From: an uncultured bacterium
GTDB taxonomy: Bacteria > Omnitrophota > Omnitrophia > Omnitrophales > Aquincolibacteriaceae
DNA: 64,000 bases
NCBI GenBank assembly: GCA_964373045.1
Contig: CAYJSI010000001.1
Span: 31,650-95,649, forward strand
Direction: 5' to 3'
Under the pieces are notes generated by a model. It was given only the letters and a program-made list of their open reading frames with translations. It made no database searches and was not told the DNA's origin. This document shows, in pieces, positions 9,431 to 41,188 of this stretch. Position numbers and translations under genes: made by a program. The first letter of the stretch is position 1, and every line of letters begins with the position of its first letter.

Positions 9431-9431
9431 T

Positions 9432-11807: not shown

Positions 11808-11813
11808 AAGAAA

Positions 11814-13411: not shown

Positions 13412-13420
13412 GGCGCATCC

Positions 13421-23327: not shown

Positions 23328-23837
23328 TTGACTTTGACCCTCCGTCTCCTCGTTATTCCCTTTATCAGTTTCGCGGGATGCCTGATCTTCCATATTCTTT
23401 TATGGAGGTTTTATCGCCCGAAACATCAAGCCTCAGCCTTATTAGGGATCCTTATCGGCCTGCCCTTTATGATTTTTCTCTTCTGGAAGCTCCCCCGGCC
23501 CTATTTTCCCTGGACGGATTTTTATGCCATCCTGCTCCTCCACACCTCCCTTAGCCTCGCCTATATTCTGGTGTACCCGGCGAGCCAAGCCGATAGCCCG
23601 TCCTTTAAAATCCTTCTTCACGTCGGGAGGGCTATGCCGTCGGGATTAAGCACTGAGGAGATTCAATCACGGTTTCCTGCCAGCGCTCTGCTCGATGCCC
23701 GTATCCAGGACTTGATCAACGCCAACCTGGCCCGCGTTCAATCAGATAGGTTAATTTTAACGCGCCAGGGAAGGTACTTCATAAAACCCTTTATCATGCT
23801 GCGCAAAGCGCTGGGGCTTCCCGCCGGCGCCGGTTAA
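23328..23837 (+). CDS. Hypothetical small membrane protein (4 predicted TM helices plus a basic C-terminal domain)
   Basis: ORF only; no recognisable family. Confidence 0.35.
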   Translation: MTLTLRLLVIPFISFAGCLIFHILLWRFYRPKHQASALLGILIGLPFMIFLFWKLPRPYFPWTDFYAILLLHTSLSLAYILVYPASQADSPSFKILLHVGRAMPSGLSTEEIQSRFPASALLDARIQDLINANLARVQSDRLILTRQGRYFIKPFIMLRKALGLPAGAG

Positions 23838-23845
23838 TTTCAACC

Positions 23846-24373
23846 GTGGCTTTCTTCCTTTTTTTGCTGACCCTATCCCCGCTGCTTGCCTTTGCCATTC
23901 ATTTCCTCATGGCGTGGTTTGTCCAGATTTGTCACCTTCGAATGACTCCGCTGGCCGTTGCCCTTAGGGCCGTCCTGTCAGGTTACGTCGTCATGAATTT
24001 CCTTAGCTTGAAACATGTGATACTGCTTAAAGGATTTCATTTCGGCATTTTCTTTTATTTCCTATACGGGACACTCGTCTATGGGGGTCTTGCATTTTCT
24101 TATTTTCAATTTTTCGCCATGACGGAGACGGCAAGGCGCATTCGAATTTTGCGTGCTGCGTACGAAAGCGAGGGGCTTTTTATCGCCGACTTAAAAAAAA
24201 GTTATGACGCAGAGGATATGCTGAGCGTCCGTCTGGATCGACTGGTGACGTGGAAGCAGCTTAAGATGAACGAGGGGAGATTCGTCCTGGCAAGCCATAC
24301 CCTCCACAGAATCGCAAAAATTATCGATGCCTGGGCCGTCGTCCTTGGTTTTTCAAAGCGCGGATCCTCATGA
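23846..24373 (+). CDS. Hypothetical small membrane protein, apparent paralogue of the preceding ORF
   Basis: Similar size (about 170 aa) and similar TM-plus-C-terminal-domain architecture to 23328-23837. Confidence 0.35.
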   Translation: MAFFLFLLTLSPLLAFAIHFLMAWFVQICHLRMTPLAVALRAVLSGYVVMNFLSLKHVILLKGFHFGIFFYFLYGTLVYGGLAFSYFQFFAMTETARRIRILRAAYESEGLFIADLKKSYDAEDMLSVRLDRLVTWKQLKMNEGRFVLASHTLHRIAKIIDAWAVVLGFSKRGSS

Positions 24374-24882
24374 AATTTCAGGCCCTTACCAACCACGTCC
24401 TTCGGGATCATGTGCTGATCGGCGGCCTTGCGGCGGCATGTCTTGCGCCGTTCTGGGGCCCGTGGGAAAGTCTCGCCTTTTGGATCGCCACGGTCATGGT
24501 CGACGCCGACCATTATTTACACTATCTCAGCTGTACAAAAGGGAGACACTTTGGCATTGGCCCCATGCTTCGCTTTCACGAGGAACTTTTCTCTAGGCGC
24601 CACCGTCCCGAGCTCCTCGTTTTGGAAATTTTTCATACGGTTGAATTTGTCCTCCTGCTGGGATGGGCCGCTTTTAATTATTTTCAAGGCCTCATCCCGG
24701 TTTTTTGGGGTGTTGTCTTTCATATGGCCGTGGATTTTATCCATCTCAAACGATATGGAATTTTGAGCAAGCGGGTCAATAGCTTCCTGGAATACGAGTG
24801 GCGAAAGAAGGGGCTTCTGAAGCAGGGCTTAGATCCCAGTCGGCTGATGGAAGAGACGTTGAACGCCGCAAATTTAAGGTAA
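24370..24882 (+). CDS. Hypothetical His-rich membrane protein (possible membrane-bound metal-dependent hydrolase, DUF457/YdjM-like)
   Basis: VDADHYLHY and HMAVDFIH histidine clusters flank hydrophobic helices. Confidence 0.3.
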   Translation: MKFQALTNHVLRDHVLIGGLAAACLAPFWGPWESLAFWIATVMVDADHYLHYLSCTKGRHFGIGPMLRFHEELFSRRHRPELLVLEIFHTVEFVLLLGWAAFNYFQGLIPVFWGVVFHMAVDFIHLKRYGILSKRVNSFLEYEWRKKGLLKQGLDPSRLMEETLNAANLR

Positions 24883-24895: not shown

Positions 24896-26659
24896 TTAGG
24901 CAGGCAGATCGATTCGATAGATGATGACCTCGTGCTTTTTGATGCGGCGCCCCACCTTCAATTTCATGAAGTTCAGCAGCTTCAAATATCGCATAAACCC
25001 CGTGGGGGCATCGTAGAAATTGTAACGATTCCAGAGCGTGACGCGGTACCCTGCCCTTCGGAACGATTCTAGCCGTTCGGCGTCTTCGCTGCGCGAAAAG
25101 AAATAAAGCAAACCTTCCTTCTCTATTTTGGCACGCGCCGTTTCAAACCAATCAGCCGGAAGATTGTACCAATCGATCACCCTGAATCTCTGCTCAAGCT
25201 CTGAGTGTTTGAGATAGATCTCCCAAGGCCCCGGCTCTTTTCCGTAGGCTTCTCGAAAAAGATCCTTCTCGGCCTCGACCTGCACCCACTGCATGCCTGC
25301 GAAATGTTTGGAGATTCCAGTATAAAATCCGTAATTCGGAATGGCAGTAAAGAGAATCGCGCCGGTCAGAACCCAACGAAACATTGACCGGCGATTACGC
25401 AAAAATTCGAAGCGCTCACTCCAGACTCCCATCCCCATAAAAAAAAGCAAGACCCCGGGGACATAGGCAAAGTTTAAGAACCGCGTGTCATCCACCGTTA
25501 ATCCGTTGGCAAATCCCGCCACCGTGGCCGCGAACCAAATCAAAAGGATCCAAAATTCATGCTCGAGCCGTGCCGGGTCCATCGATACTTTTGAAAAAGA
25601 CTTCTTTCGAAACCGTGAAAGGATCCATGGAAGCAAGAGCAAGTTAAGCCAGAATAACCATCCGATAAAAAACCCCATATTTTCCGTAAGAGATCGCGGG
25701 ATCTTTTTGCGGCAAAGCGTGGTCAAGGGAAATTCTCCACCCGCAACAAAAAAAGTCCGCTGCAACATATTTTTCCAGTGAAAACTCAGGGTTGTTTTAT
25801 CTTTGCTATCCACATCTTCAGCAACTTCAGAGGAGGCCACGCCCGGCTGGGAGGCAGTCGTGTGGGATTGAGTTTTGAAGGGGATAACCAACATTATCAT
25901 CGCCAACGCGGTCACGATCAAGAGGGAGAGGCGCCGAAGACCGATGCGAGTCGTTATGAACCGAAATCGCCAAACAAAAAAACCCAGACAAACCAAAGGC
26001 AAAATTTTCTCACTGGATTTAAGTTTGATGGCAAGCCAGATCGCGAGCACCCAGCCCATGATTTGAAGGAGAAAGCTCGCAAAGGATGGGGAACGTTCAA
26101 AGGTTAAACGCGACAATAAGAGTAGGGCCGTGATTGAAAGAATTGAAATGGTGGGCTGAAAATCACCGGAAAAAGTCGAGGTTAGTGTGTAATAATTTGT
26201 AGGAAAACTTGTGTAGAGAATGACAGCGAGCCAGGCGAAAAGTTTGCTCCCTGTCCAGCGATAGATCAGGAAAAAAAAGAGGGCCGATAAAAGTCCCGCG
26301 CCTACGGCAGCGGTCAGATGAAAGGGGATCAATGAATCAGCAAAAAGATCGAAATAAGACTTCATCCATAAAAACTGAAGTGGTCGTAAGAATTCCATCA
26401 TCCGATCCGGGGGATAAAACCATGCGGGGGACAGGGGATTTAAGGTCCGCAAGAAGAGATCGGAATAAGTGGAGGCGTTTACCCCGCGCAAGTTAATTGT
26501 GATGTGATCCGAATTAAAATCTGTCGGCAGGCCCAACCAGTAAAAGCAAATAAAGGCAAAGGAGAACAAGAAGGCTAAGAGAAGATGCTTTTTAATCGGG
26601 GCGGGAACCCAGAATGTCGTGGACGTCATAGGAGCTTTCATGATAACATTTTGTGTCAT
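24896..26659 (-). CDS. Large multipass membrane protein (putative GT-C-type glycosyltransferase) with a C-terminal soluble domain
   Basis: 587 aa with more than 10 hydrophobic helices. It is divergent from the carrier-protein cassette. Confidence 0.4.
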   Translation of the reverse strand: MTQNVIMKAPMTSTTFWVPAPIKKHLLLAFLFSFAFICFYWLGLPTDFNSDHITINLRGVNASTYSDLFLRTLNPLSPAWFYPPDRMMEFLRPLQFLWMKSYFDLFADSLIPFHLTAAVGAGLLSALFFFLIYRWTGSKLFAWLAVILYTSFPTNYYTLTSTFSGDFQPTISILSITALLLLSRLTFERSPSFASFLLQIMGWVLAIWLAIKLKSSEKILPLVCLGFFVWRFRFITTRIGLRRLSLLIVTALAMIMLVIPFKTQSHTTASQPGVASSEVAEDVDSKDKTTLSFHWKNMLQRTFFVAGGEFPLTTLCRKKIPRSLTENMGFFIGWLFWLNLLLLPWILSRFRKKSFSKVSMDPARLEHEFWILLIWFAATVAGFANGLTVDDTRFLNFAYVPGVLLFFMGMGVWSERFEFLRNRRSMFRWVLTGAILFTAIPNYGFYTGISKHFAGMQWVQVEAEKDLFREAYGKEPGPWEIYLKHSELEQRFRVIDWYNLPADWFETARAKIEKEGLLYFFSRSEDAERLESFRRAGYRVTLWNRYNFYDAPTGFMRYLKLLNFMKLKVGRRIKKHEVIIYRIDLPA

Positions 26660-26738
26660 TTTTGTTTAGCCAATTGTGCTGTGAGCTTCCAGGAAATCCC
26701 AAAGGAAACCCAATCGTCTAAAGGAGATAAACTTATTT

Positions 26739-27041
26739 ATGGTTTCAGAAGACCGCGTCAAAGAGCTAATGCTAGAGGCCCTCAAAAAAGTGAAGGAGGC
26801 CGAAGAGATTTATAAAAACCTTCCTTTGAATGATCAGACCATCGTCCTGGGACGGGGCGGGGCCTTCGATTCCATCGCCTTTACAGCCTTTGCCACGGAT
26901 TTTGAGGAAAAAATGGAAGATGAGACAGGTTCTGAGTTTATTCTTAAAATGGACGAGCTTTTTTCTAAAAGTAAAGGCAAGTCCGACTTTACAGTGGCCG
27001 ACCTCGCAAGGTTCGTGGCCGGAAAGAGTGGGCGCAACTAA
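26739..27041 (+). CDS. Acyl/peptidyl carrier protein-like (phosphopantetheine attachment Ser in GAFDSIAF)
   Basis: 100 aa and acidic, with a DSI serine motif in the position of the ACP DSL motif. AAGGAG Shine-Dalgarno lies 12 nt upstream of the ATG. Confidence 0.45.
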   Translation: MVSEDRVKELMLEALKKVKEAEEIYKNLPLNDQTIVLGRGGAFDSIAFTAFATDFEEKMEDETGSEFILKMDELFSKSKGKSDFTVADLARFVAGKSGRN

Positions 27042-27044
27042 CCG

Positions 27045-28118
27045 ATGGAAAAGGTCGTTTCTTCTGAGGGGCCCATGACCGCCGAAAGCAAAATCACGGA
27101 GGAACTCTCGACCCTCATTCGTGGTTTTTTCGCCACTCCCGTGATTTCTGGTTTGGGGAGAACAGGCGTGCTAAAAATGATTCTGGAGCGTGAGCGCTTC
27201 TCGCCGGGTGACTTTGCGGCCGTCCCCAATAAGCAATTGCTCACCTACAGCTTCCGATACCTTGCACGAATCGGCCTTCTTGAACCTGAAAATGAATTAA
27301 GGGGCGAATACCGCGCCAGCGAACTCGGCCGCCAGGTTTTTCAGCGGGTGAACTCTTTTTATGCCCCTCACTCTTACCGCGATTACATGCTCCATTACCG
27401 GGAGCAGTTATTGAACGCGGGCCCTTATCAAACGCTCAAGGTTGACCGTCTGGAAAATATCATCGGAAGCGGGCGCACTCATGAGCGTTATTTTCCGCCG
27501 GCGGTTTCTTTCTTAAAACGAAAGGTTCAATTTGATGTTTTGGCCGATATCGGGTGCGGAGACGGGCGGTTCTTGGAGTTTGCTTTAAAAGGCATTCCTT
27601 CCATCAAAGTTGTCGGAATTGACTTATCGGAGATTTCAACAGAAACCACGCGAAAAAATCTTCAACAGAAATATCCCGACCGCACAATCCATACCCTCTG
27701 CTCAGACGCAAGCGATATTGAAAAGTGGAGCGAACCGCTTACCCGTTTTGTCGGAAAGGAAACCCTTGCTATCTCCATGTGGTTTTTGCTCCATGAAATT
27801 TCGCGGAGTGAACCGAAAAATGTTTTGGAATTTCTCCTTCAGGTCCATCGCCTCTTTCCTAAGACACCGCTTGTGATTTGTGAGCTGGTCCGTCAAAGCG
27901 CTGAAGTTTTATCGCGATCCCGCAGGGAAATGATCATGCCGGAGTATTTGTTTTTTCACGACATTTCGCTGCAAGGAGTCCTCTCCTGGCGGGACTATCA
28001 ATCCATCCTCAAAAATATTCCCTACCAACTGGCAAGCGAAAGGCTCTTTGACGAGATTGGGAACGAAGGGGCGAAGGAGCCCGCCACTTTTGTGTGGTGC
28101 CTCACCCCCCGGCAGTGA
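27045..28118 (+). CDS. SAM-dependent methyltransferase, plant-type OMT-like (dimerisation domain + class I MT)
   Basis: An N-terminal winged-helix dimerisation-like region is followed by VLADIGCGDGRFLEF motif I. Confidence 0.55.
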   Translation: MEKVVSSEGPMTAESKITEELSTLIRGFFATPVISGLGRTGVLKMILERERFSPGDFAAVPNKQLLTYSFRYLARIGLLEPENELRGEYRASELGRQVFQRVNSFYAPHSYRDYMLHYREQLLNAGPYQTLKVDRLENIIGSGRTHERYFPPAVSFLKRKVQFDVLADIGCGDGRFLEFALKGIPSIKVVGIDLSEISTETTRKNLQQKYPDRTIHTLCSDASDIEKWSEPLTRFVGKETLAISMWFLLHEISRSEPKNVLEFLLQVHRLFPKTPLVICELVRQSAEVLSRSRREMIMPEYLFFHDISLQGVLSWRDYQSILKNIPYQLASERLFDEIGNEGAKEPATFVWCLTPRQ

Positions 28119-28130
28119 CCCTCCAATTCC

Positions 28131-29138
28131 ATGCCGTCCGTGACGCAATCTGATTTTGGTGTTGGGATTTCCGGACTTGGAAAATATCTTCCTCGGAAAA
28201 CGATCACCAACGCCGAGTTAGGTAAAAAAATCAAGATCCTCCCTTCTGAAATTTCTGAGCGCTCAGGCATCACGACCCGCCATTTTGCCGGAAAAGATGA
28301 GTCAGCTTCCCGGATGTCGGCCGACGCCGCAAACGCTGCGCTTCGCCAAGCAGGCGTCAAAGCTGACAAGATCAATCTGATTATCTGCTGCACAACTTCG
28401 GGGGATTACCTATTTCCCGCCACGGCCGCAAAGGTTCAAGGCTTGATCGGTGCGGAGCATGCGGCTGCCTTTGATCTTTCGGCAAGCGCGGCGAGCTTTC
28501 CTCTGGCGCTCGGTCTCGCCCATGACCGATTGCGTTCCCGTCCGGAGCTAAATCATATTTTAGTGATCGGCACGGCGGTGCAGTCGCCTTTTATTGACTG
28601 GCGGAATCATAGCCTTGCGGCCTTGCTCGGGGACGGGTCCGGGGCCGCTCTTCTTTCTCGTGTCCCTGTGCCCTACGGCATTCTTGCCAATGAATCAATA
28701 GTCAAAGGGGAACTCTTTGAAGCGGCACGCTTGCGGGGCGGGGGGTCCGCCTTTCCCATGAAAAAAGACAACGTCGATCAAGGATTGCAATATATCGAAA
28801 TGGATGGCCCTACGATCGGTCGTGAGTTTCTTAAAACACAGCCGCAATTAATCGATCAAGCCCTCAGCCGAGCCGGTCTGAAGCGTTCAGATATTGATTT
28901 AATTATTTTTCACCAAGCCAATCTCCGTCTGATTCAATATGCCATGGAGCGCCTTAAGCTCCCCATGTCAAAAACCTATGCTAATGTCAGCCGAGTCGGC
29001 AACACGGCTGAGGCCTCCATCCCCATGGCCTTGTGTGAAGCTGGGGAGAAGGGCTTGATCAAGCGGGGCTCGCTCGTTGTCTTATCCGGGGTCGGTGCCG
29101 GCTGCATCTTGAGCGTCACGGTGATGCGATGGCATTAA
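28131..29138 (+). CDS. 3-oxoacyl-ACP synthase III (FabH)-like protein, apparently lacking the nucleophilic Cys
   Basis: FHQANLRLIQ (His) and GNTAEASIP (Asn) are conserved. The region corresponding to FabH AFDVAAACAGF reads AFDLSASAASF, with no Cys. Confidence 0.55.
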   Translation: MPSVTQSDFGVGISGLGKYLPRKTITNAELGKKIKILPSEISERSGITTRHFAGKDESASRMSADAANAALRQAGVKADKINLIICCTTSGDYLFPATAAKVQGLIGAEHAAAFDLSASAASFPLALGLAHDRLRSRPELNHILVIGTAVQSPFIDWRNHSLAALLGDGSGAALLSRVPVPYGILANESIVKGELFEAARLRGGGSAFPMKKDNVDQGLQYIEMDGPTIGREFLKTQPQLIDQALSRAGLKRSDIDLIIFHQANLRLIQYAMERLKLPMSKTYANVSRVGNTAEASIPMALCEAGEKGLIKRGSLVVLSGVGAGCILSVTVMRWH

Positions 29139-30124
29139 ATATGCAGGATTCCTCCATCACTTATATTTTTGCGGCGGAGAAGGATGCGCCAGAGCTCGCC
29201 CAACTCTACGCAGAATTTTACCCTCATCTTTTGTGGTCGGAAGCGTATCTTAAGTGGCAATATTTTGAGAACCCGGCCGGCCAGGCTCGCGTCCTTGTGG
29301 CAAAAATTGGCAATAAAATCATCGCCACTTACGCCATGGTTCCTCACACGATGAAGATCCGAGGCAGGCTCAAAACAGGATTCAGGATCCAGGATGCGCT
29401 CACGCGCCCGGAGTACCGCGGGTATGGGATCTATCACGCTTTCTCGCGGCGGGCAAAAAAGGAACTTATGATTCCCGATTACCCCGTCAATTTTACCTTT
29501 CCCAATGATAAGTCGTATAACGGGTTTATCAAAACGGGTTGGCAATCGGTCTTCAAAATTCCCTTAAGGATTGTACCGAATCCTCAGAAGATAGACTTGG
29601 GTGATGTCTCAGCCAAGATCGAACCCTTGACTCAGTTCAATGAACGCACAGATCAAATCTGGAGTTCATTCCTAAAATCCTGCTGCGTTGACTACGCCGT
29701 CGAGAGATCCGCAGCCTATTTAAACTGGCGTTATCTCAAACGCCCCGGAGCCACGTATCATCCTTTCGTCGTGCATTCAAAAGAAGATCGGCTTGTCATC
29801 ATCCTTAAAGATTACGAGCGTGAAAATGGGGAGCGCTGGGCTCACATCTGCGATCTTTTTCAGTCCAATCCCAACCCTCCCTTGACCGAAGCGGCTCTTG
29901 TTTTTGCCATCCGTTTTGCCTCGGAACGCAAATGCCGGGCGTTGAGTTTGTGGTCTCTTCCCGGTGGTCCGATAAGCGAGGCGCTTAAAAGGTATCCGAA
30001 CAAAGAACCCAAAGATTTTAGCCGGTGGTTTGTTTTGAATGTCAATCCTGCTGATGAAATAGTAGCGCCGTGTGTTGATGCCGGCCGTTGGCATCTTTCC
30101 ATGGGGGATAGCGATGTCTACTAA
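29129..30124 (+). CDS. FemAB-like / GNAT-fold two-domain acyl- or aminoacyl-transferase
   Basis: 331 aa. The first half has a GNAT-like core (VLVAKIGNKIIATYAMVPH...RGYGIYHAF). The second half repeats the fold, as in FemAB-related PEP-CTERM-associated proteins. Confidence 0.4.
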   Translation: MALNMQDSSITYIFAAEKDAPELAQLYAEFYPHLLWSEAYLKWQYFENPAGQARVLVAKIGNKIIATYAMVPHTMKIRGRLKTGFRIQDALTRPEYRGYGIYHAFSRRAKKELMIPDYPVNFTFPNDKSYNGFIKTGWQSVFKIPLRIVPNPQKIDLGDVSAKIEPLTQFNERTDQIWSSFLKSCCVDYAVERSAAYLNWRYLKRPGATYHPFVVHSKEDRLVIILKDYERENGERWAHICDLFQSNPNPPLTEAALVFAIRFASERKCRALSLWSLPGGPISEALKRYPNKEPKDFSRWFVLNVNPADEIVAPCVDAGRWHLSMGDSDVY

Positions 30125-30899
30125 AACGAAATGCGGTTTCGGAATCGCCCATTACGAGGAAATTCTTTCCACCGGGATTGAGAAGGGGTATCGATTCATC
30201 CGTTTCGACGAACTGTCAAAACAAGCCGCGGGTCAGAAACTCTGCGTTCTTCGTCATGACGTTGATTACCTGCCGGAACGAAATCTCAGGTTTGCAGAAA
30301 TTGAAAATCGTTTAGGGATCCGTGCCGCCTATTTTTTTCAAATTGGTGCCATGCCGTACAATTTGCGGGAGGCTAAAAATTATAGGGTGGTCCGAGAGCT
30401 TTCGAAGATGGGTCATGTCATCGGCCTTCACTTTGATTTCACATGGAAAGAGAATGTTCGGTGGGACGAATTAGCGGCCCTGTGCAAGGGCGATAAAAAA
30501 GTATTCCAGGCGATTACTGGGATAACCCCCTGCGAAATCATTTCATTCCACAACCCGCATCGCTTCACCGAACGGATTCTCAATCAAAAAATAGCCGGGA
30601 TGTGTCATACGTACGAAGCAGATTACTTTTCTTCGATTAAGTATATTTCGGACAGCCAGGGATGGTACGAGGGCTGCATGTGCGGCCTTTTCCGCTCTGC
30701 GAAATATCCGGCCTATCAATTTCTGACGCATGACTATATCTGGCCGGACCGATCCTCGGGAGATTTCATCACGGACATGGCCCATATGATCAAGGGCAGG
30801 GGCAATGAGCTCCTGCGGTACATGATCGAGTTCCATCCTGTCTGCCGCAAGCACCAGGATCGCCTTCGCAAAGAGCTGGCTCACTTGCGCACGCAATAG
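30114..30899 (+). CDS. Polysaccharide deacetylase-like (CE4 superfamily) protein
   Basis: VLRHDVDYLPERNL...IGLHFDF resembles NodB-type metal-site motifs. The ATG at 30114 is preferred over the overlapping track start at 30072. Confidence 0.4.
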   Translation: MSTKTKCGFGIAHYEEILSTGIEKGYRFIRFDELSKQAAGQKLCVLRHDVDYLPERNLRFAEIENRLGIRAAYFFQIGAMPYNLREAKNYRVVRELSKMGHVIGLHFDFTWKENVRWDELAALCKGDKKVFQAITGITPCEIISFHNPHRFTERILNQKIAGMCHTYEADYFSSIKYISDSQGWYEGCMCGLFRSAKYPAYQFLTHDYIWPDRSSGDFITDMAHMIKGRGNELLRYMIEFHPVCRKHQDRLRKELAHLRTQ

Positions 30900-30967
30900 T
30901 TTCTCTCCCTTTCCTTCATTGAATATCATTGACTATTACTGACGTCTAATGATACATTTGCGCATTC

Positions 30968-32131
30968 ATGAAGATCATTCCCTACAGTCGCCAAACTATT
31001 CTCGCGCAGGACATCCGGGCCGTTTCACAAACCTTGCGCGCGGGCTGGATCACCCAGGGCCCCAAAATTTCCGAGTTTGAAAGCGCTATCGCGCTCTATT
31101 GCGGGGCCAAATATGCCGTGGCTGTCGCGAATGGAACCGCCGCGCTTCACTTGGCCTGTTTAGCCGTCGGATTAGGCAAGGGAGACGAAGCCGTTACGAC
31201 TCCGATCTCTTTTCTTGCAACTTCAAACGCCGTAATCTATGCGGGAGCGACGCCTGTATTTGCGGATATCGATTACGACACCATCAATATCGATCCTGAA
31301 AAAATCCGGACTCAAATCACGGCGAGGACAAAAGTCATCTTGCCGGTTGATTTTGCAGGGCTTCCGGCCCCCATGAAAGAAATTAAAAAATTGGCCTCAC
31401 GACACGGCCTGGCGGTCATTGAAGACGCCTCTCACGCCCTAGGGGCCCGGTATGACCGGACCGCAAAAGTGGGGTCGTGCCGGTATTCCGATATGACGAC
31501 GTTTAGTTTTCATCCCGTAAAACATATCACGACAGGGGAGGGCGGGTGCATCACCACCAACAGCCGCGTCCTTTATGAGAAGCTGAAGGCCCTTCGAAGC
31601 CACGGCGTTTATCGCAACAGCGGCGTGCAAAAAAAACTGGGACCCTGGTACTACGAAATGAAAGAGCTTGGGATGAATTATCGACTCACCGACTTCCAGG
31701 CCGCCTTGGGGATGTCGCAGCTGAGACGTCTCGAGCAGTTCATTGAGCGCCGGGACCTGATTTGTAAAAGATATGACGAGGCCTTCCGCGATCTGAAAAA
31801 AGTGCTAAAAATTCCGACGCAGAAAATCCTGCAGGGAAGTCACGTCCGGCATTTGTATTTACTCCGTTTAGCGGCAGAGCGGCCCGCCCCTTTACGGCGC
31901 CGGCTCTTTGATTATTTGCGGGCTAACCGTATCCAACCGCAAGTGCACTACATCCCTATTTACCGCCAACCGTATTACCGGCGTTTCTTTCAAAATAAGA
32001 AAGTGCGCTGTCCTCAGGCGGACCGTTATTATGATGAAGTGCTCAGCCTTCCTCTCTATCCTGATATGAAAGAGCATGAAATCCGTCACACGATCAATAC
32101 CGTAAAAAGATTTTTCGGCTCATTTTTATGA
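30968..32131 (+). CDS. pseC: UDP-4-keto-6-deoxy-HexNAc C4 aminotransferase (DegT/DnrJ/EryC1 family), PseC-like
   Basis: IIPYSRQTI...GPKISEFE...SFHPVKHITTGEGG (catalytic Lys motif typical of PseC). Confidence 0.65.
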   Translation: MKIIPYSRQTILAQDIRAVSQTLRAGWITQGPKISEFESAIALYCGAKYAVAVANGTAALHLACLAVGLGKGDEAVTTPISFLATSNAVIYAGATPVFADIDYDTINIDPEKIRTQITARTKVILPVDFAGLPAPMKEIKKLASRHGLAVIEDASHALGARYDRTAKVGSCRYSDMTTFSFHPVKHITTGEGGCITTNSRVLYEKLKALRSHGVYRNSGVQKKLGPWYYEMKELGMNYRLTDFQAALGMSQLRRLEQFIERRDLICKRYDEAFRDLKKVLKIPTQKILQGSHVRHLYLLRLAAERPAPLRRRLFDYLRANRIQPQVHYIPIYRQPYYRRFFQNKKVRCPQADRYYDEVLSLPLYPDMKEHEIRHTINTVKRFFGSFL

Positions 32132-33168
32132 TTAAACGTGTTTTGATTAGGGCCGATGCCCATAGCCGGGTCGGGTACGGTCATCTCATGCGTTCAATCG
32201 CTTTGGCTCAGGCCTTGAGCAGGGAAGGAGTCGCGGTCAGCTTCTGTACCGCCACTTCCGAGGATTCCCTGTGTCGTTATTTACAAGCACAAGCCTTCCC
32301 GACGCACTTTTTAACTCTCTCCGAGAAAGAATTAGGCTCCGACCGGGATCTGGAACAGATGCAAAAATGGATCGCCTCGCCGCCGGATTGGGTGGTGTTA
32401 GACAACGAATATTTTGCAACATCATACCAAACGCTAGTTCGCGAGACTGGGGCACGTCTACTTGTGTTGGATGATCACAATCGACGAGATTTTGATGCCG
32501 ATCTCATCGTCAACCATTCTCTTCATGCGGAAACTCTGGGATATAAAAAAGGGGGCGGGTGTCGGCGTCTTTTGGGACCTCGTTATGCCTTAATTCGCCA
32601 GGAGCTTCTCGATTTTCCACAAACTGAAAACAAATGCCTACGGCACGTGCTCGTCACGTTAGGGGGAAGTCCTCAGGAGGAAATGTATAAAAAAATTCTC
32701 ACTGCTTTATCGCAAATCAAAACCCACGAACTCCAAATACGGCTATTAGCGGGGTCGTCTCAGCGATCGGTTATTCAAAGCTTAACGGCCAAATTTCACT
32801 CTCATGAGATCGAGCTTTGCGAGACAAGTTTCGACTTGGCATCACTCTATGATTGGGCCGGTTTAGCAGTTTGCGCAGCAGGTGGCACTTGTCTTGAGCT
32901 ATGTTTTTTTGGCGTGACAGGACTTGTTGGAGCGTTGGAGTCTTGTCAGCTACCCGTTACTGAATCCCTGGCTACAGCGGGCATATTTCAGTCGATCGGA
33001 GATTACAGGGCAGCAAAACCGGATGATTTAGCTCACGCGATAAGTCTACTCCTAAAATCTCCCTCAGAGGAAAATGTTAGATGCACAAAAATCGGACGCC
33101 TTATAGACGGAGGGGGGGCGAATCGTATTTTAGATGTAATAAAAATGATTACTAATGACATCCTATAA
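32128..33168 (+). CDS. pseG: UDP-2,4-diacetamido-2,4,6-trideoxy-beta-L-altropyranose hydrolase (PseG-like, GT-B fold)
   Basis: N-terminal RADAHSRVGYGHLMRSIALAQAL matches the PseG signature R.D....G.GH..R...LA. Overlaps pseC by 4 nt. Confidence 0.55.
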   Translation: MIKRVLIRADAHSRVGYGHLMRSIALAQALSREGVAVSFCTATSEDSLCRYLQAQAFPTHFLTLSEKELGSDRDLEQMQKWIASPPDWVVLDNEYFATSYQTLVRETGARLLVLDDHNRRDFDADLIVNHSLHAETLGYKKGGGCRRLLGPRYALIRQELLDFPQTENKCLRHVLVTLGGSPQEEMYKKILTALSQIKTHELQIRLLAGSSQRSVIQSLTAKFHSHEIELCETSFDLASLYDWAGLAVCAAGGTCLELCFFGVTGLVGALESCQLPVTESLATAGIFQSIGDYRAAKPDDLAHAISLLLKSPSEENVRCTKIGRLIDGGGANRILDVIKMITNDIL

Positions 33169-33184
33169 CTAGTAAGAATAGTTA

Positions 33185-33213
33185 TTGACACTAAATAACC
33201 ATCATGCTAAAGT
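33185..33213 (+). promoter_or_regulatory. Sigma70-like promoter TTGACA-17 nt-TAAAGT
   Basis: Seen in the 66-nt gap after pseG, 22 nt upstream of the HTH ORF. Confidence 0.35.
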
Positions 33214-33234
33214 TACACCTCCCAAATCAACAAA

Positions 33235-33522
33235 TTGGATAACCGAGGCCCTATGGAAATCAATGAAAATGAGGTTTATACGACTGCAGAAATGCGGCAA
33301 ATCTTGAAGATTAGCCAGAGCACGGCGATGCGAATGCTTAAAACCGGTCTTATTCGTGCCGCGAAAGTGGGAAAGCAATACCGGATCATGGGAAAAGAAC
33401 TTTTGCGCCTTGTTTCACCTAAACTCGAAGACGAAGTGGGCAAAATTTACAACAAGGGACGGAGCTGGGTTCATGAGGGGGTCGGTCAAAACCCTAAATC
33501 GGTAGCGCAAAATGAGCTTTAA
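33235..33522 (+). CDS. Helix-turn-helix DNA-binding protein, excisionase/MerR-like family
   Basis: YTTAEMRQILKISQSTAMRMLKTGLIRAAKVGKQYRI matches the excisionase-family HTH pattern. It carries a C-terminal extension and overlaps the pseB start by 11 nt. Confidence 0.45.
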   Translation: MDNRGPMEINENEVYTTAEMRQILKISQSTAMRMLKTGLIRAAKVGKQYRIMGKELLRLVSPKLEDEVGKIYNKGRSWVHEGVGQNPKSVAQNEL

Positions 33523-34582
33523 GGAATTATTTAAAGGTAAGACCGTCTTAATCACCGGCGGTACCGGATCTTTCGGAAAAAAATTCACGCGAAAAGTCTT
33601 GCAAGAATGCCACCCTAGGCGTTTGATCATTTTTAGCCGGGACGAATTCAAGCAATTTGAATTGTCCCAAACTATCAGCCCGAAGGACCACGACACCATC
33701 CGCTATTTTGTCGGCGATGTTCGCGATAAAGAGCGCCTTTATCGTGCTTTTCATAAGGTGGATTACGTAATTCACGCCGCCGCCTTGAAGCAAGTTCCCG
33801 CCTGCGAATACAATCCCTTTGAAGCTGTAAAAACCAACATTCTTGGAGCTCAAAATGTCATCGATGCCGCTATTGATCAAGGTGTGAAAAAGGTCCTTGC
33901 CTTAAGTACGGATAAAGCGGCCAATCCTATCAACCTTTACGGTGCGACAAAATTATGCTCCGACAAACTTTTTGTTGCAGGTAACTCATATTCCGGCGCG
34001 GACAACTGTTGTTTTGCCGTAGTGCGGTACGGCAATGTCATCGGCAGTCGCGGCAGCGTTATTCCTTCTTTTCTCGAGCAGCGTAAAACAGGTGTGTTAT
34101 CAATCACAGACCCTCAAATGACTCGCTTTTGGATCACGTTGGATTACGCTGTTGATTTCGTACTTTCTTGCTTGGAATCCATGGTCGGCGGGGAGCTTTT
34201 TATCCCAAAAATTCCAAGCATGAATATCATGGACCTTGTGAAAGTTATTGCACCTAAATGTGCCACGAAAATCATAGGCATTCGGCCCGGGGAAAAGCTT
34301 CACGAAGTTTTGCTGCCTCAAAATGAAGCCCGAAAAACCTTAGAACTGGAAACTCATTATATTGTCCAGCCTGATTTTGAGTTTTGGGGAAAGCGGTTTA
34401 TCAAAAACAGTGGAAAACCAGTCGCGCATGACTTTGAATATAACTCGCAAACGAACCCATACTTTCTCGCCGCTGATGAGATGCGCAAAATTATCGTCGA
34501 ACAAATGGAAGGATTCGGCGTGCTTGATGAAGCGATTGAAAAAAGATATAAAAAAGATAAAGCGAAAATGAGGGTTTGCTGA
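33512..34582 (+). CDS. pseB: UDP-N-acetylglucosamine 4,6-dehydratase (inverting) PseB/FlaA1
   Basis: Near-identical signature blocks to PseB: KTVLITGGTGSFGK, FVGDVRDKERL, HAAALKQVP, EYNPFEAVKTNILGAQNVIDAA, LSTDKAANPINLYGATKLCSDKLFVAGN. Confidence 0.8.
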   Translation: MSFKELFKGKTVLITGGTGSFGKKFTRKVLQECHPRRLIIFSRDEFKQFELSQTISPKDHDTIRYFVGDVRDKERLYRAFHKVDYVIHAAALKQVPACEYNPFEAVKTNILGAQNVIDAAIDQGVKKVLALSTDKAANPINLYGATKLCSDKLFVAGNSYSGADNCCFAVVRYGNVIGSRGSVIPSFLEQRKTGVLSITDPQMTRFWITLDYAVDFVLSCLESMVGGELFIPKIPSMNIMDLVKVIAPKCATKIIGIRPGEKLHEVLLPQNEARKTLELETHYIVQPDFEFWGKRFIKNSGKPVAHDFEYNSQTNPYFLAADEMRKIIVEQMEGFGVLDEAIEKRYKKDKAKMRVC

Positions 34583-36431: not shown

Positions 36432-36439
36432 GTTAGCAA

Positions 36440-41134: not shown

Positions 41135-41188
41135 CTTACTCGTTTCTTTTACTGTCGTAGAAATACATTGAAAGGTGTTCCGATAAAA

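What the first reader, a model, noticed from the sequence alone, without database searches (positions are those of the whole stretch)
26739..30899. Carrier-protein tailoring cassette (ACP + OMT-like MT + Cys-less KAS III + FemAB/GNAT + deacetylase-like) directly upstream of the pse operon
Five co-directional, tightly packed genes encode (1) a small acidic carrier protein with a DSI phosphopantetheine-type serine, (2) an OMT-like methyltransferase, (3) a FabH-like condensing-enzyme fold lacking the Cys nucleophile, (4) a two-domain FemAB-like GNAT and (5) a CE4 polysaccharide-deacetylase-like protein. The block ends 68 nt before pseC. This gene set resembles, from memory, the uncharacterised exosortase/PEP-CTERM-associated set (ACP, FemAB-like, PEP-CTERM-locus polysaccharide deacetylase, AMP ligase) that is thought to install an unknown acyl or aminoacyl decoration on exopolysaccharide. 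Here it is wired to a pseudaminic-acid pathway. That suggests a non-acetyl N-acyl group built on a carrier protein and transferred to a sugar amine. I am not aware that this has been characterised biochemically.
Basis: partly seen in the sequence, partly recalled or inferred. Interest (0 to 1): 0.8.

Follow-up and report, generated by a model that had tools for sequence, protein, structure and literature searches.

The report
Carrier-protein acyl-swap cassette for pseudaminic acid
Five tightly packed genes just upstream of a pseudaminic-acid sugar operon appear to build a small, probably methyl-branched acyl group on a dedicated carrier protein and to swap it for an N-acetyl group on the sugar; no such decoration route has been described, and none of it has been tested biochemically.

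Summary
In detail: five co-directional, nearly abutting genes (26739-30899) end 68 nt before pseC. Tools changed several labels. The 100-aa ORF matches no carrier-protein HMM, but its model is a four-helix carrier-protein fold with an invariant Ser45. The methyltransferase is closest to the metal-dependent malonyl-ACP C-methyltransferases AprA MT1 and SxtA MT, not to O-methyltransferases. The FabH-like protein belongs to a small clade in which the nucleophile Cys is Ala, Gly or Ser (never Cys) while His and Asn are kept, which fits a decarboxylase. The GNAT is Eis-like, not FemAB-like. The fifth protein has a CE4 deacetylase fold.

Synteny splits the block into two modules. ACP-MT-KAS III is found in ten distinct loci, always in this order, and every informative one is a nonulosonic-acid locus. 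GNAT-CE4 is an adjacent pair found across phyla, often without the trio.

Best model (inferred): malonyl-ACP is C-methylated and decarboxylated to propionyl- or isobutyryl-ACP, the CE4 enzyme frees a sugar amine, and the GNAT re-acylates it.

The recalled exosortase/PEP-CTERM resemblance found no HMM support. Verdict: a real, uncharacterised new variant of carrier-protein-dependent aminosugar acylation.

The parts
26739..27041 (+). Free-standing acyl carrier protein (100 aa, pI 4.8). The predicted phosphopantetheine site is Ser45 in FDSIAFTAFA.
26871..26873 (+). Codon of Ser45, the predicted prosthetic-group attachment site.
   Evidence: conservation.
27045..28118 (+). SAM-dependent methyltransferase (357 aa), related to the AprA MT1 / SxtA MT / 2-ketoarginine MT / MppJ class of C-methyltransferases. 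Key motifs: lid VDRLENIIGSGRTHERYF (res 133-150), SAM motif DIGCGDG (168-174), and H250-E251...H305.
   Evidence: Pfam Methyltransf_25 and AprA MT2-like hits. Family profile against PDB: AprA MT1 1.5e-8, 7ucl 1e-7, 2-ketoarginine MT 5e-7, MppJ 3e-3, with the lid motif and HE...H aligned. Homologues are 61-66% identical and always sit between the ACP and KAS III genes.
28131..29138 (+). KAS III (FabH)-fold protein (335 aa) without the nucleophile Cys (Ala120). His261 and Asn291 are kept. Predicted (methyl)malonyl-ACP decarboxylase.
   Evidence: NF006829 271.7 bits (cut-off 249); TIGR00747 253.9, below its 292.1 cut-off. Alignment to solved FabH structures. The clade has A/G/S at the Cys site in 9 of 9 members, while 140 of the 150 nearest cluster representatives are Cys-His-Asn.
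28488..28490 (+). Codon of Ala120, at the position of E. coli FabH Cys112.
29129..30124 (+). Eis-like GNAT acyltransferase (331 aa; alternative start 29141) with an invariant C-terminal WHLSMGDSDV[YF]. Predicted N-acyltransferase acting on the sugar amine.
   Evidence: Pfam Acetyltransf_9 36.4 bits on residues 15-138. Profile hits Eis-family structures 2i00, 3n7z, 2hv2 and 2ozg. Always adjacent to the CE4-like gene.
30114..30899 (+). CE4-fold (NodB-type) deacetylase-like protein (261 aa from ATG 30114; the longest ORF starts at GTG 30072). Predicted sugar de-N-acetylase.
30968..33168 (+). pseC and pseG, the start of the pseudaminic-acid operon that the cassette abuts (context).
   Evidence: TIGR03588 474 bits and TIGR03590 167.6 bits, both above their cut-offs. 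No terminator-like signal beyond chance between 30899 and 30968.
24896..26659 (-). Divergently transcribed 587-aa polytopic membrane protein with no family assignment. It is a conserved neighbour of the ACP gene (context; function unknown).
   Evidence: No Pfam or NCBIfam hit. Homologues (48-68% identity) sit divergently upstream of the cassette position in L014, L042, L044, L045 and L046.

Best explanation
The block is a tailoring cassette of a pseudaminic-acid (Pse) locus, made of two separable modules.

Module A (ACP, methyltransferase, Cys-less KAS III) makes a short acyl donor on a dedicated carrier protein. The holo-ACP is loaded with malonate by housekeeping enzymes. The AprA-MT1/SxtA-type methyltransferase C-methylates malonyl-ACP once or twice. 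The KAS III-fold protein has lost the nucleophile but kept the His/Asn decarboxylation machinery and the ACP-docking Arg, and it decarboxylates the product to propionyl- or isobutyryl-ACP. This is the logic of the AprA/SxtA/CurA polyketide loading modules, here as free-standing proteins and with a KAS III fold doing the job of the GNAT decarboxylase.

Module B (Eis-like GNAT plus CE4-fold hydrolase) swaps an N-acyl group on the sugar. The CE4 enzyme removes an N-acetyl group from a Pse precursor, Pse or CMP-Pse; the likeliest target is the GlcNAc-derived acetyl that ends up on N5. The GNAT then re-acylates the freed amine, from acyl-ACP where module A is present and presumably from an acyl-CoA where it is not.

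Shown here: gene anatomy, folds, active-site residue patterns and synteny. Inferred: every chemical step, the acceptor, the position on the sugar and the identity of the acyl group.
For: - Context: the block sits 68 nt upstream of pseC and pseG, which both pass their equivalog cut-offs. Downstream are pseB-like, WbuX-type amidotransferase, hisH/F-like, PseH-like GNATs, a CMP-transferase and NeuB.
- MT: the family profile hits AprA MT1 (1.5e-8), an SxtA-type protein (7ucl, 1e-7), 2-ketoarginine MT (5e-7) and MppJ (3e-3). It shares the lid motif R-x2-N-x3-SG-x2-H-x2-[FY]-F just before the SAM motif, and its H-E...H aligns to the 2-ketoarginine MT. [quoted passage not shown]
- KAS III: in 9 of 9 clade members the Cys position holds Ala (window, L044, L046), Gly (P0023) or Ser (L005, L010, L042, L043, P0025). 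The HQAN and GNT motifs were found wherever the recovered sequence covers them. By my recollection of E. coli FabH structure papers, Arg151 binds CoA and Arg249 docks ACP; the Arg151 equivalent is lost and the Arg249 equivalent kept in all 5 members aligned. A site that tolerates Ala and Gly cannot carry an acyl-enzyme intermediate, but it is compatible with decarboxylation, as in KSQ/CLF and the Cys-to-Ser KS of HMG-synthase cassettes (established knowledge).
- Synteny: ACP-MT-KAS III appears in that order in all six loci found with the ACP as query. The trio or parts of it occur in ten distinct loci, and every one with informative flanks is a NulO locus. In L046 the trio is followed by an SGNH/AlgX-like protein instead of GNAT-CE4, as expected for a portable donor module.
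- GNAT-CE4 pair: adjacent or overlapping in all 11 distinct loci that carry a close GNAT homologue with readable downstream sequence. They include MAGs named Omnitrophota, Vicinamibacterales and Sericytochromatia.
- CE4-like relatives elsewhere sit next to other acyl transferases: a formyltransferase four genes away in L047, and an LbH plus a GNAT in L050.
- Precedent: a deacetylase plus formyltransferase in a Leg cluster of Kuenenia, with CMP-NulOs carrying a free or formylated amine (bioRxiv 10.64898/2026.04.20.719630).
- A canonical PseH-like GNAT is also present next to pseI, so the Eis-like GNAT is an extra acyl-transfer step rather than the pathway N-acetyltransferase.
Against: - No biochemical data exist for any of the five proteins.
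- The MT similarity to AprA MT1 and SxtA is partial (37 bits; about 105 of 357 residues plus a weak N-terminal stretch). Pfam's significant hits are generic, apart from a 31.8-bit AprA MT2-like hit. It could instead methylate the sugar or another intermediate.
- Known KS-type decarboxylases belong to the KAS I/II branch, and I know of no characterised KAS III decarboxylase. Five of nine clade members have Ser, which could be a nucleophile as in DpsC, so the Ala/Gly forms could be degenerate.
- No malonyl transferase, PPTase or acyl-ACP ligase lies in the block.
- The CE4-like His pair is spaced H-x4-H rather than the canonical H-x3-H, and activity is unproven.
- The GNAT's donor and acceptor are unknown, and its C-terminal half was not modelled.
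- To my knowledge, N-propionyl and N-isobutyryl nonulosonic acids have not been reported.
Confidence: 0.42

Rival explanations
1. The KAS III-like protein is an acyltransferase rather than a decarboxylase. A Ser at or next to the old Cys site would form an acyl-O-enzyme, as in DpsC, or it would act like the KAS III-type sugar acyltransferases CerJ and ChlB6. It would move an acyl group from CoA to the ACP, or from the ACP to the sugar.
For: Five of nine clade members have Ser at the nucleophile position, and the window protein has Ser at -1. KAS III-fold acyltransferases that decorate sugars are established (CerJ, ChlB6; from memory). In L046 no GNAT follows the trio.
Against: The window protein, L044 and L046 have Ala and P0023 has Gly at that position, with no indel in the 7-residue FD...F segment that could shift a Ser into place. 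Asn is retained rather than the Asp of DpsC. The equivalent of E. coli FabH Arg151, which I recall as a CoA-binding residue, is lost in all five members aligned. A separate acyltransferase (GNAT or SGNH) is always encoded downstream.
Confidence: 0.15
2. The trio simply supplies acetyl-ACP (malonyl-ACP decarboxylated, with no C-methylation), or another unmodified acyl-ACP. The methyltransferase then acts elsewhere, for example O- or N-methylating the nonulosonic acid or its acyl side chain.
For: Methylated Pse/Leg derivatives are common (C. jejuni di-O-methylglyceroyl and N-methylacetimidoyl forms). The MT's significant Pfam hits are generic. The window carries many other sugar-locus methyltransferases.
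Against: The MT is always locked between the ACP and KAS III genes, at 61-66% identity. It is absent from the eight GNAT-CE4 loci that lack the trio (the L002-L004 locus, L008, L013, L014, L015, L048, L049). Its best specific relatives are malonyl-ACP and alpha-keto-acid C-methyltransferases, with a shared lid motif and HE...H residues. An ACP-bound acetyl donor would be redundant with acetyl-CoA.
Confidence: 0.17
3. The KAS III-like protein is a non-catalytic partner or scaffold, like PqsB or a chain-length factor. The cassette's chemistry would then be carried by the MT and the GNAT, with the GNAT acting as decarboxylase as in the CurA/AprA loading modules.
For: The nucleophile is lost. In the AprA, SxtA and CurA modules the decarboxylase is a GNAT-like domain adjacent to the MT and ACP (established knowledge; PMC10784701 for SxtA and AprA).
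Against: The His and Asn motifs were found wherever the recovered sequence covers them (7 and 6 of the 9 members), the ACP-docking Arg equivalent is kept in all 5 aligned members, and identity is 44-60% across the clade, which argues for catalytic constraint. The GNAT here is Eis-like and occurs with the CE4 partner in many loci that have no ACP or MT, so its core job does not depend on malonyl-ACP.
Confidence: 0.08
4. One reading: the set is a relative of the exosortase/PEP-CTERM-associated ACP / FemAB-like / polysaccharide-deacetylase / AMP-ligase system, and it installs an aminoacyl or acyl group on a polysaccharide after polymerisation.
For: There is a superficial match of parts (ACP, two-lobed acyltransferase, CE4-fold protein). 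The window is a large surface-glycan island with a flippase and GT-C enzymes. An AMP-binding enzyme exists 15 kb downstream.
Against: The GNAT and the CE4-like protein match no NCBIfam model, TIGR03019 and TIGR03006 included, even at E <= 10. The GNAT profile matches Eis-family proteins, not FemAB. The pair is embedded among nucleotide-sugar and NulO precursor genes (PseC/G/F/I) in every locus. No exosortase or PEP-CTERM genes were seen in the window.
Confidence: 0.03

Closest known systems
GNAT-type polyketide loading modules that start from malonyl-ACP: AprA (MT1-psiGNAT-MT2-ACP), SxtA (MT-GNAT-ACP-AONS), CurA (GNAT-ACP)
   Same: They use the same inferred logic: malonyl-ACP is C-methylated by a metal-dependent MT and then decarboxylated to a short (branched) acyl-ACP. 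The window MT profile hits AprA MT1 and an SxtA-type structure best, and shares the lid motif. A dedicated ACP is encoded alongside.
   Different: Here the parts are free-standing proteins in a glycan locus, not domains of a PKS. The putative decarboxylase has a KAS III fold, not a GNAT fold. The product would be used to acylate a sugar, not to prime a polyketide. Similarity to the MTs is partial (37 bits).
KS-type malonyl-ACP decarboxylases: KSQ loading domains, chain-length factor, and the Cys-to-Ser KS of HMG-synthase beta-branching cassettes (CurC, PksF, MupG) with their donor ACPs (CurB, AcpK)
   Same: This is a condensing-enzyme fold with the nucleophile replaced and the decarboxylation residues retained, encoded next to its own ACP. 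The best structural match of the window ACP is CurB.
   Different: Those enzymes are KAS I/II-type with Gln or Ser at the site. This one is KAS III-type (NF006829), with Ala, Gly or Ser at the site. Activity is untested.
Carrier-protein and fatty-acid-like genes inside flagellin or Pse glycosylation islands: C. jejuni Cj1299 (acpP2) and Cj1303 (fabH2), with Cj1304 (acpP3) recalled from memory only; Aeromonas group II islands (ACP, 3-oxoacyl-ACP reductase, AMP-dependent synthetase, luxE, luxC)
   Same: ACP and FabH-like or other acyl-handling genes are embedded in Pse loci and are presumed to make non-acetyl substituents (PMC3229698, PMC6109747, PMC7874193). The window also carries the DUF4910 plus Antibiotic_NAT pair that corresponds to Cj1295/Cj1296-7.
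   Different: Those genes are known only as annotations, and their sequences could not be compared here. The Aeromonas set has a different composition (reductases, ligase). No MT / Cys-less KAS III / Eis-like GNAT / CE4 combination is described.
Deacetylase plus acyl- or formyl-transferase steps in nonulosonic-acid and aminosugar pathways: the Kuenenia Leg cluster (deacetylase + formyltransferase), Aeromonas group IE/IF deacetylases, and ArnD/ArnA in Ara4N
   Different: The window protein belongs to a distinct, unannotated CE4-like family (no Pfam hit; H-x4-H spacing). Its fixed partner is an Eis-like GNAT, here fed (by inference) by an ACP.
Eis-family GNAT acetyltransferases (Pfam Acetyltransf_9; PDB 2i00, 3n7z, 2hv2, 2ozg)
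   Same: The N-terminal roughly 195 residues match by HMM. Like Eis, the protein is longer than a single GNAT domain and has a strictly conserved extreme C-terminus.
   Different: It is 331 aa rather than about 400, with no SCP2-type third domain detected. Eis acetylates aminoglycosides and proteins from acetyl-CoA, whereas this family is fixed in NulO loci next to a CE4-like gene.

Membership tests
Acyl/peptidyl carrier proteins (PP-binding, PF00550) | Four-helix bundle carrier fold | tested here: met
Acyl/peptidyl carrier proteins (PP-binding, PF00550) | Conserved Ser in a D-S-(L/I) motif at the N-terminus of helix 2 | tested here: met
   F-D-S45-I at the start of helix 45-63, invariant in 10 homologues.
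Acyl/peptidyl carrier proteins (PP-binding, PF00550) | Match to the family HMM | tested here: not met
   No Pfam or NCBIfam carrier-protein hit at E <= 10 for 4 members.
Acyl/peptidyl carrier proteins (PP-binding, PF00550) | 4'-phosphopantetheinylation of the Ser | not testable with these tools
   Needs Sfp or AcpS treatment and intact-mass analysis.
Beta-ketoacyl-ACP synthase III (FabH) | Family HMM above the curated cut-off | tested here: inconclusive
   NF006829 subfamily scores 271.7, above its 249 cut-off. TIGR00747 fabH scores 253.9, below its 292.1 cut-off.
Beta-ketoacyl-ACP synthase III (FabH) | Cys-His-Asn catalytic triad | tested here: not met
   Ala120 stands at the Cys112 position; His261 and Asn291 are present. 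Clade members have A, G or S at that position.
Beta-ketoacyl-ACP synthase III (FabH) | Acyl-CoA primer site (E. coli Trp32/Arg151 stacking on the CoA adenine; role recalled from memory) | tested here: not met
   The window has Glu at the W32 column and His at R151. R151 is lost in all 5 clade members aligned.
Beta-ketoacyl-ACP synthase III (FabH) | ACP-docking Arg (E. coli Arg249; role recalled from memory) | tested here: met
   Arg is retained in all 5 clade members.
KS-type malonyl-ACP decarboxylases (KSQ / CLF / HMGS-cassette KS) | Nucleophile replaced while the decarboxylation residues are retained, with a dedicated ACP partner | tested here: met
   A/G/S at the site and His plus Asn kept. 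The ACP gene lies two genes upstream in all six ACP-query loci and the window.
KS-type malonyl-ACP decarboxylases (KSQ / CLF / HMGS-cassette KS) | Belongs to the KAS I/II (Ketoacyl-synt) branch | tested here: not met
   Pfam ACP_syn_III and ACP_syn_III_C; only a sub-threshold Ketoacyl-synt_C trace. So it may work like these enzymes, but it is not a member.
KS-type malonyl-ACP decarboxylases (KSQ / CLF / HMGS-cassette KS) | Decarboxylase activity on (methyl)malonyl-ACP | not testable with these tools
   Needs an in vitro assay.
Metal-dependent C-methyltransferases of the AprA MT1 / SxtA MT / MppJ / 2-ketoarginine MT class | Sequence similarity to solved members | tested here: met
   Profile A5: AprA MT1 1.5e-8, 7ucl 1e-7, 8r4z 5e-7, MppJ 3e-3. 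Single sequence: 8r4z 9e-5. TIGR04543 scores 47 bits, far below its 425 cut-off, so it is not an equivalog.
Metal-dependent C-methyltransferases of the AprA MT1 / SxtA MT / MppJ / 2-ketoarginine MT class | 2-His-1-carboxylate metal site (H-[DE]...H; pattern recalled from memory) | tested here: inconclusive
   H250-E251 and H305 are invariant in the family and align with H-E and H of the 2-ketoarginine MT 8r4z. Their identity as metal ligands rests on my recollection of MppJ and AprA structures, and the alignment to AprA does not reach this region.
Metal-dependent C-methyltransferases of the AprA MT1 / SxtA MT / MppJ / 2-ketoarginine MT class | Domain of a PKS loading module (for AprA and SxtA) | tested here: not met
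   It is a free-standing 357-aa protein in a glycan locus.
Carbohydrate esterase family 4 (NodB / Polysacc_deac_1, PF01522) | Distorted (beta/alpha) barrel NodB fold | tested here: met
Carbohydrate esterase family 4 (NodB / Polysacc_deac_1, PF01522) | Family HMM match | tested here: not met
   The window protein has no Pfam or NCBIfam hit. One distant relative (P0244, 38% identity) carries PF01522.
Carbohydrate esterase family 4 (NodB / Polysacc_deac_1, PF01522) | Asp-His-His metal triad and catalytic Asp (motifs TFDD and H-S/T-x-x-H) | tested here: inconclusive
   Invariant R-H-D(-x-D) and two invariant His in G-H-V-I-G-L-H (H-x4-H, one residue longer than canonical). A structural superposition of the ligands was not possible.
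FemAB family / TIGR03019 (PEP-CTERM-associated FemAB-like) and TIGR03006 (PEP-CTERM-locus polysaccharide deacetylase) | HMM match | tested here: not met
   No NCBIfam family at E <= 10 for the GNAT or the CE4-like protein. This assumes the TIGRFAM models are in NCBIfam release 20, and HMMER filters drop most hits above E of about 0.1.
Eis-like GNAT (Acetyltransf_9, PF13527) | N-terminal GNAT domain matching the family HMM | tested here: met
   36.4 bits against a 25-bit cut-off on residues 15-138. The profile hits the Eis-family structure 2i00 at 2.9e-5, plus 3n7z, 2hv2 and 2ozg.
Eis-like GNAT (Acetyltransf_9, PF13527) | Three-domain architecture (GNAT-GNAT-SCP2, about 400 aa) | tested here: not met
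   The protein is 331 aa, and nothing was detected beyond residue ~195.
Pseudaminic acid biosynthesis locus | PseC and PseG equivalogs, plus PseB-, PseH-, PseI- and PseF-type genes | tested here: met
   TIGR03588 474.2 bits (cut-off 423.5) and TIGR03590 167.6 bits (cut-off 153.55). Polysacc_synt_2, Acetyltransf_3, NeuB and CTP_transf_3 are present.

The most novel reading that the evidence does not exclude
A free-standing, glycan-dedicated counterpart of the AprA/SxtA polyketide starter module, in which a KAS III-fold enzyme that has lost its cysteine acts as the (methyl)malonyl-ACP decarboxylase. That activity has not been described for the KAS III branch. Its propionyl- or isobutyryl-ACP product would be installed on pseudaminic acid by a deacetylase/GNAT acyl-swap pair, giving an N-acyl nonulosonic acid type not yet reported. 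The trio would then be a portable 'acyl-donor' module that can be plugged onto different transferases (Eis-like GNAT here, SGNH/AlgX-like in L046).
Probability: 0.3. Interest if true: 0.78.

Novelty: new variant of a known kind. Interest (0 to 1): 0.62.

Why it matters
Nonulosonic acids such as pseudaminic acid decorate flagella, capsules and S-layers. Their N-acyl groups control charge, hydrophobicity, immune recognition and phage susceptibility. Yet the genes behind most non-acetyl substituents, including the ACP and FabH-like genes long annotated in Campylobacter and Aeromonas glycosylation islands, remain uncharacterised.

This cassette offers a compact, testable route of five soluble proteins, with mass-shift read-outs on an ACP and on CMP-sugars. 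If the model holds, it would do three things:
- Add a decarboxylase function to the KAS III fold.
- Show that the methylate-then-decarboxylate logic of cyanobacterial polyketide loading modules also operates in primary glycan tailoring, in candidate phyla such as Omnitrophota.
- Give a deacetylase/GNAT pair usable for chemo-enzymatic diversification of Pse for vaccines and probes.

If it fails, the conserved GNAT-CE4 pair alone still marks a widespread, unannotated N-acyl editing step in NulO pathways.

Tried and rejected
- Pfam and NCBIfam on the carrier-like ORF and three homologues, up to E 10: no PP-binding hit.
These sequence methods failed; fold methods succeeded.
- phmmer of the ACP, the GNAT and the CE4-like protein against PDB sequences: nothing useful.
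- The word-indexed homologue search found only 4 ACP and 14 GNAT relatives. Exact-cluster look-ups gave no names or accessions, so the source organism is unknown. It is probably Omnitrophota, judged from the nearest loci L012 and L014.
- Promoter and terminator scans of 26300-33700 gave counts equal to the shuffled expectation, so they say nothing about operon structure.
- Literature searches for ACP or FabH together with pseudaminic or nonulosonic acid, for Cys-less KAS III decarboxylases and for Pse deacetylase/acyltransferase pairs found only annotation-level mentions. One search was rejected for a term that was too long.
- The AprA and SxtA primary papers (PMC5784268, PMC9462956, DOI 10.1021/acschembio.7b00746) are not held. 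The metal-ligand assignments for that family therefore rest on memory and on a secondary citation.
- I could not obtain C. jejuni Cj1298-Cj1304 sequences to test homology with this cassette, because no suitable collection or search remained.
- Rejected: the FemAB / exosortase-associated reading (no HMM support).
- Rejected: a bona fide condensing FabH (no Cys, no CoA-binding Arg).
- Rejected: 3-hydroxybutyryl synthesis. No KR, DH or ER is in the block; only an aldo-keto reductase lies 11 kb downstream.
- Rejected: a link between the 932-aa AMP-ligase fusion and the ACP. The fusion is 15 kb away, has no carrier domain, and did not recur in the related loci searched by tblastn.

Full report
**1. 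What is in the sequence**

The region 26739-30899 holds five ORFs on the + strand:
- a 100-aa ORF (26739-27041);
- a 357-aa ORF (27045-28118);
- a 335-aa ORF (28131-29138);
- a 331-aa ORF (29129-30124);
- a 275-aa ORF as the longest reading (30072-30899).

They are separated by 3 nt, 12 nt, a 10-nt overlap and a further overlap. For the last gene, the ATG at 30114 overlaps the preceding stop by 11 nt. It gives 261 aa, in line with the 252-270 aa of homologues, so it is the likelier start. Sixty-eight nt downstream lies an ORF that passes the PseC equivalog cut-off (TIGR03588, 474 bits against 423.5), followed by PseG (TIGR03590, 167.6 against 153.55).

Further downstream lie:
- a pseB-type dehydratase;
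- a WbuX-type N-acetyl-sugar amidotransferase (TIGR03573, 337 bits) with HisH/HisF-like partners;
- a formyltransferase-like protein;
- two PseH-type GNATs;
- a CMP-transferase;
- NeuB;
- a flippase.

The rest of the 64-kb window consists of glycosyltransferases, PMT-like GT-C proteins, DUF2079, methyltransferases, sugar dehydratases and aminotransferases. There is no FabD, phosphopantetheinyl transferase, KR/DH/ER or PKS gene. Promoter and terminator scans were no better than shuffled sequence. The window comes from a metagenome (Logan ERR3478686). The nearest named relatives of its genes are Omnitrophota MAGs.

**2. The five proteins**

*(ii) Methyltransferase.* Pfam gives generic class I hits and a 31.8-bit hit to the 'AprA MT2-like' model. 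A profile of six orthologues (61-66% identity) searched against PDB sequences gave these hits:

| PDB hit | E-value |
|---|---|
| AprA methyltransferase 1 | 1.5e-8 |
| Two entries of a 'polyketide synthase-related protein' (7ucl, 7uci; by entry-number adjacency to 7uch probably SxtA, from the same study) | 1e-7 |
| 2-ketoarginine methyltransferase | 5e-7 |
| MppJ | 3e-3 |

The invariant stretch VDRLENIIGSGRTHERYF, just before the SAM motif DIGCGDG, aligns with vnRtlNvvaSGfqHekfF of AprA MT1 and idRtlNvigSGfqHqkyF of 7ucl. H250-E251 and H305 align with H-E and H of the 2-ketoarginine enzyme. [quoted passage not shown] All of these relatives methylate a carbon next to a carbonyl. 'OMT-like' is thus right at most for the fold class.

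*(iii) KAS III-like protein.* It passes the NF006829 subfamily cut-off (271.7 against 249) but not TIGR00747 (253.9 against 292.1). It aligns end to end with solved FabH structures. At the position of E. coli Cys112 it has Ala120, while His261 and Asn291 are present. Of the 150 nearest 50%-identity cluster representatives among 1.84 billion proteins, 140 have Cys-His-Asn. The few closest relatives, together with the orthologues recovered from related loci, form a clade in which the position is:
- Ala in the window, L044 and L046;
- Gly in P0023;
- Ser in L005, L010, L042, L043 and P0025;
- never Cys.

The FD...F segment has the same length in all members, so no Ser can slide into place. In the five members aligned, the equivalent of E. 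coli Arg151 is lost and the equivalent of Arg249 is kept. By my recollection of the E. coli FabH structure papers, Arg151 stacks on the CoA adenine and Arg249 docks ACP.

*(iv) GNAT.* Residues 15-138 match Acetyltransf_9. A 14-sequence profile hits the Eis-family structures 2i00 (2.9e-5), 3n7z, 2hv2 and 2ozg over residues ~8-195. No FemAB, TIGR03019 or other NCBIfam model matches. The family ends in an invariant WHLSMGDSDV[YF] at the very C-terminus.

**3. Comparative genomics**

*GNAT-CE4 pair.* I took close GNAT homologues (33-52% identity) that have readable sequence downstream. Each has the CE4-like gene immediately downstream, often overlapping. This holds in 11 distinct loci, counting the window, the L002-L004 locus and the L005-L007 locus once each. 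They include MAGs named Omnitrophota, Vicinamibacterales and Sericytochromatia. Two loci found from the CE4 side, L048 and L049, show the same pair. With one exception, all of them lie among PseB/C/G/F/I-type, DegT and NeuB genes. The exception is L049, where only about 500 nt of sequence are held beyond the pair.

*ACP-MT-KAS III trio.* It is present upstream of only some of these pairs (window; L005-L007; L009-L012). It is absent from others: the L002-L004 locus, L008, L013, L014, L015, L048 and L049. In L014 a B12-binding radical SAM gene occupies the trio's place. Searching metagenomes with the ACP alignment returned six further loci, and every one has the order ACP-MT-KAS III:
- L042 continues into the GNAT.
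- L041 follows pseC-pseG.
- L043 follows a WbuX-like gene.
- L046 continues with an SGNH/AlgX-like protein, an HTH-CMP-transferase fusion, a Gfo/Idh/MocA oxidoreductase and a DegT aminotransferase.

No locus shows FAS or PKS genes.

*Other partners of the CE4-like family.* Relatives elsewhere sit beside other acyl transferases. In L047 a formyltransferase lies four genes downstream, beside a DegT gene. In L050 an LbH acetyltransferase, a GNAT and WbqC are adjacent.

*Divergent neighbour.* The 587-aa membrane protein transcribed divergently from the ACP gene is conserved in that position in five other loci.

**4. Mechanism**

The block splits into a donor module (ACP-MT-KAS III) and an acyl-swap module (GNAT-CE4).

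*Donor module.* An AprA-MT1/SxtA-like methyltransferase sits between a dedicated ACP and a condensing-enzyme fold. That fold cannot form an acyl-enzyme (Ala or Gly tolerated) but keeps His/Asn and the ACP-docking Arg. This points to malonyl-ACP being methylated and then decarboxylated to propionyl- or isobutyryl-ACP. KS-type decarboxylases (KSQ, CLF, the Cys-to-Ser KS of HMG-synthase cassettes) are the mechanistic precedent (established knowledge), but they belong to the KAS I/II branch.

*Swap module.* The Pse pathway already has a PseH-type acetyltransferase here. The N5 acetyl of Pse derives from GlcNAc (established pathway knowledge, restated in the preprint read). A CE4 de-N-acetylase locked to an N-acyltransferase is the simplest way to replace that group. 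A 2026 preprint reports the analogous deacetylase plus formyltransferase in a Kuenenia legionaminic-acid cluster, with CMP-NulOs carrying free or formylated amines.

Every chemical step, the acceptor and the regiochemistry are inferred. I put the full model at about 0.4, and the weaker claim (an ACP-dependent, non-acetyl acyl decoration of a Pse-type sugar) at about 0.7.

*Rivals:*
- KAS III as a Ser-dependent acyltransferase, contradicted by Ala/Gly in four of nine members, including this one.
- The MT acting on the sugar, with the trio supplying only acetyl-ACP. This is contradicted by the MT's strict linkage to the ACP and KAS III genes and by its nearest relatives.
- KAS III as a dead scaffold with the GNAT as decarboxylase, contradicted by conservation of the KAS III active-site residues and by GNAT-CE4 pairs that lack an ACP.
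- The exosortase/FemAB analogy, which has no HMM support.

**5. Relation to what is known**

Carrier-protein and fatty-acid-type genes inside Pse glycosylation islands are documented as annotations:
- Cj1299 (acpP2) and Cj1303 (fabH2) in C. jejuni (PMC6109747, PMC3229698).
- ACP, 3-oxoacyl-ACP reductase, AMP-synthetase, luxE and luxC in Aeromonas group II islands, and deacetylases in groups IE and IF (PMC7874193).

None of these has been characterised, and I could not compare their sequences with the window. ACP-dependent N-acylation of aminosugars is an established theme; the V. cholerae O1 tetronate genes are an example I recall from memory. The kind is therefore known. The specific combination appears in none of the literature I could search: an AprA/SxtA-type C-methyltransferase, a Cys-less KAS III, an Eis-like GNAT and a divergent CE4 protein, organised as two portable modules. 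I rate it a new variant of a known kind.

**6. Verdict**

- The finding is a real, conserved, uncharacterised cassette with a concrete and cheaply testable mechanism.
- Interest is 0.62. A specialist in nonulosonic-acid glycobiology or PKS/FAS enzymology would find the Cys-less KAS III and the AprA-like MT in a sugar locus surprising. However, the evidence is entirely computational, and the theme of acyl decorations on Pse is not new.

Noticed in passing
window 45651-48449 (+), with 48446-49417 and 49384-50616: A 932-aa fusion of an AMP-binding acyl-CoA-ligase domain (residues ~27-531) and a class I/II PLP aminotransferase domain (~555-930) sits directly after pseI (NeuB, 44617-45678). An M29-peptidase-like protein and a methyltransferase follow. 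No carrier domain lies between the two halves. It could make an amino-acyl or keto-acyl substituent for the sugar.
   Followed up: partly
window 38864-40204 and 40211-41134 (+): A DUF4910/DUF2172 (M28-like 'aminopeptidase') gene is followed by an Antibiotic_NAT gene. This is the same pair as C. jejuni Cj1295 and Cj1296/7, where Cj1295 is required for the dimethylglyceric-acid derivative of Pse (PMC3068675). A formyltransferase-like gene (37261-38286), a GNAT (38228-38845) and an aldo-keto reductase (41168-42103) flank it.
   Followed up: partly
window 24896-26659 (-): A 587-aa polytopic membrane protein with no Pfam or NCBIfam family, transcribed divergently from the ACP gene. Homologues at 48-68% identity occupy the same divergent position in L014, L042, L044, L045 and L046, so it may be functionally tied to the cassette (a transferase or transporter for the modified sugar?).
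   Followed up: partly
window 21375-23309 and 60214-61911 (+); L014 8391-9944: Two B12-binding radical SAM proteins lie in the window. In the related Omnitrophota locus L014, a B12-radical SAM gene sits directly upstream of the GNAT-CE4 pair, exactly where the ACP-MT-KAS III trio sits here. This hints at an alternative way of methylating the acyl group.
   Followed up: no
L046 2757-3944: In this locus the ACP-MT-KAS III trio is followed by a 395-aa SGNH/GDSL, AlgX-like protein instead of the GNAT-CE4 pair. That suggests the same acyl-ACP donor can feed an O-acyl-type transferase.
   Followed up: partly
window 33235-33522 (+); L046 4072-5049: A small HTH_17 (excisionase/MerR-like) protein is encoded between pseG and pseB. 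In L046 the same HTH_17 domain is fused to the N-terminus of the CMP-transferase.
   Followed up: no
window 34576-37234 (+): A WbuX-type N-acetyl-sugar amidotransferase (TIGR03573, 337 bits) with HisH- and HisF-like partners predicts an acetamidino-type Pse derivative in the same locus. The L002-L004 and L048 loci each carry two WbuX-like copies flanking the GNAT-CE4 pair.
   Followed up: partly
window 23328-24882 (+): Three consecutive ORFs of 169, 175 and 170 aa with no Pfam hit lie between the radical SAM gene and the 587-aa membrane protein. Similar-sized ORFs occupy the same place in L014 (about 5038-6638).
   Followed up: no
L005 7966-8247: A 93-aa ORF with a weak SxtJ (saxitoxin operon protein) Pfam hit (24.6 bits) lies in a NulO locus that also carries KAS III-GNAT-CE4. 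It is curious given the SxtA-like methyltransferase link, but it may be chance.
   Followed up: no
window 55801-60121 (+): E1 dehydrogenase alpha and beta subunits (TPP-dependent) are followed by two DegT-family aminotransferases, then a B12-radical SAM, a nucleotidyltransferase and a 4,6-dehydratase. This looks like a second, separate unusual-sugar pathway, possibly for a branched or acylated aminosugar.
   Followed up: no
window 280-15731: Three PMT/PMT_2-type GT-C proteins (280-1992, 7580-9430, 14169-15731) and a DUF2079 protein (3015-4811) are interleaved with GT2s, a TylF-like O-methyltransferase and a 2OG-Fe(II) oxygenase. This is an unusually large concentration of lipid-linked-sugar transferases for one locus.
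   Followed up: no
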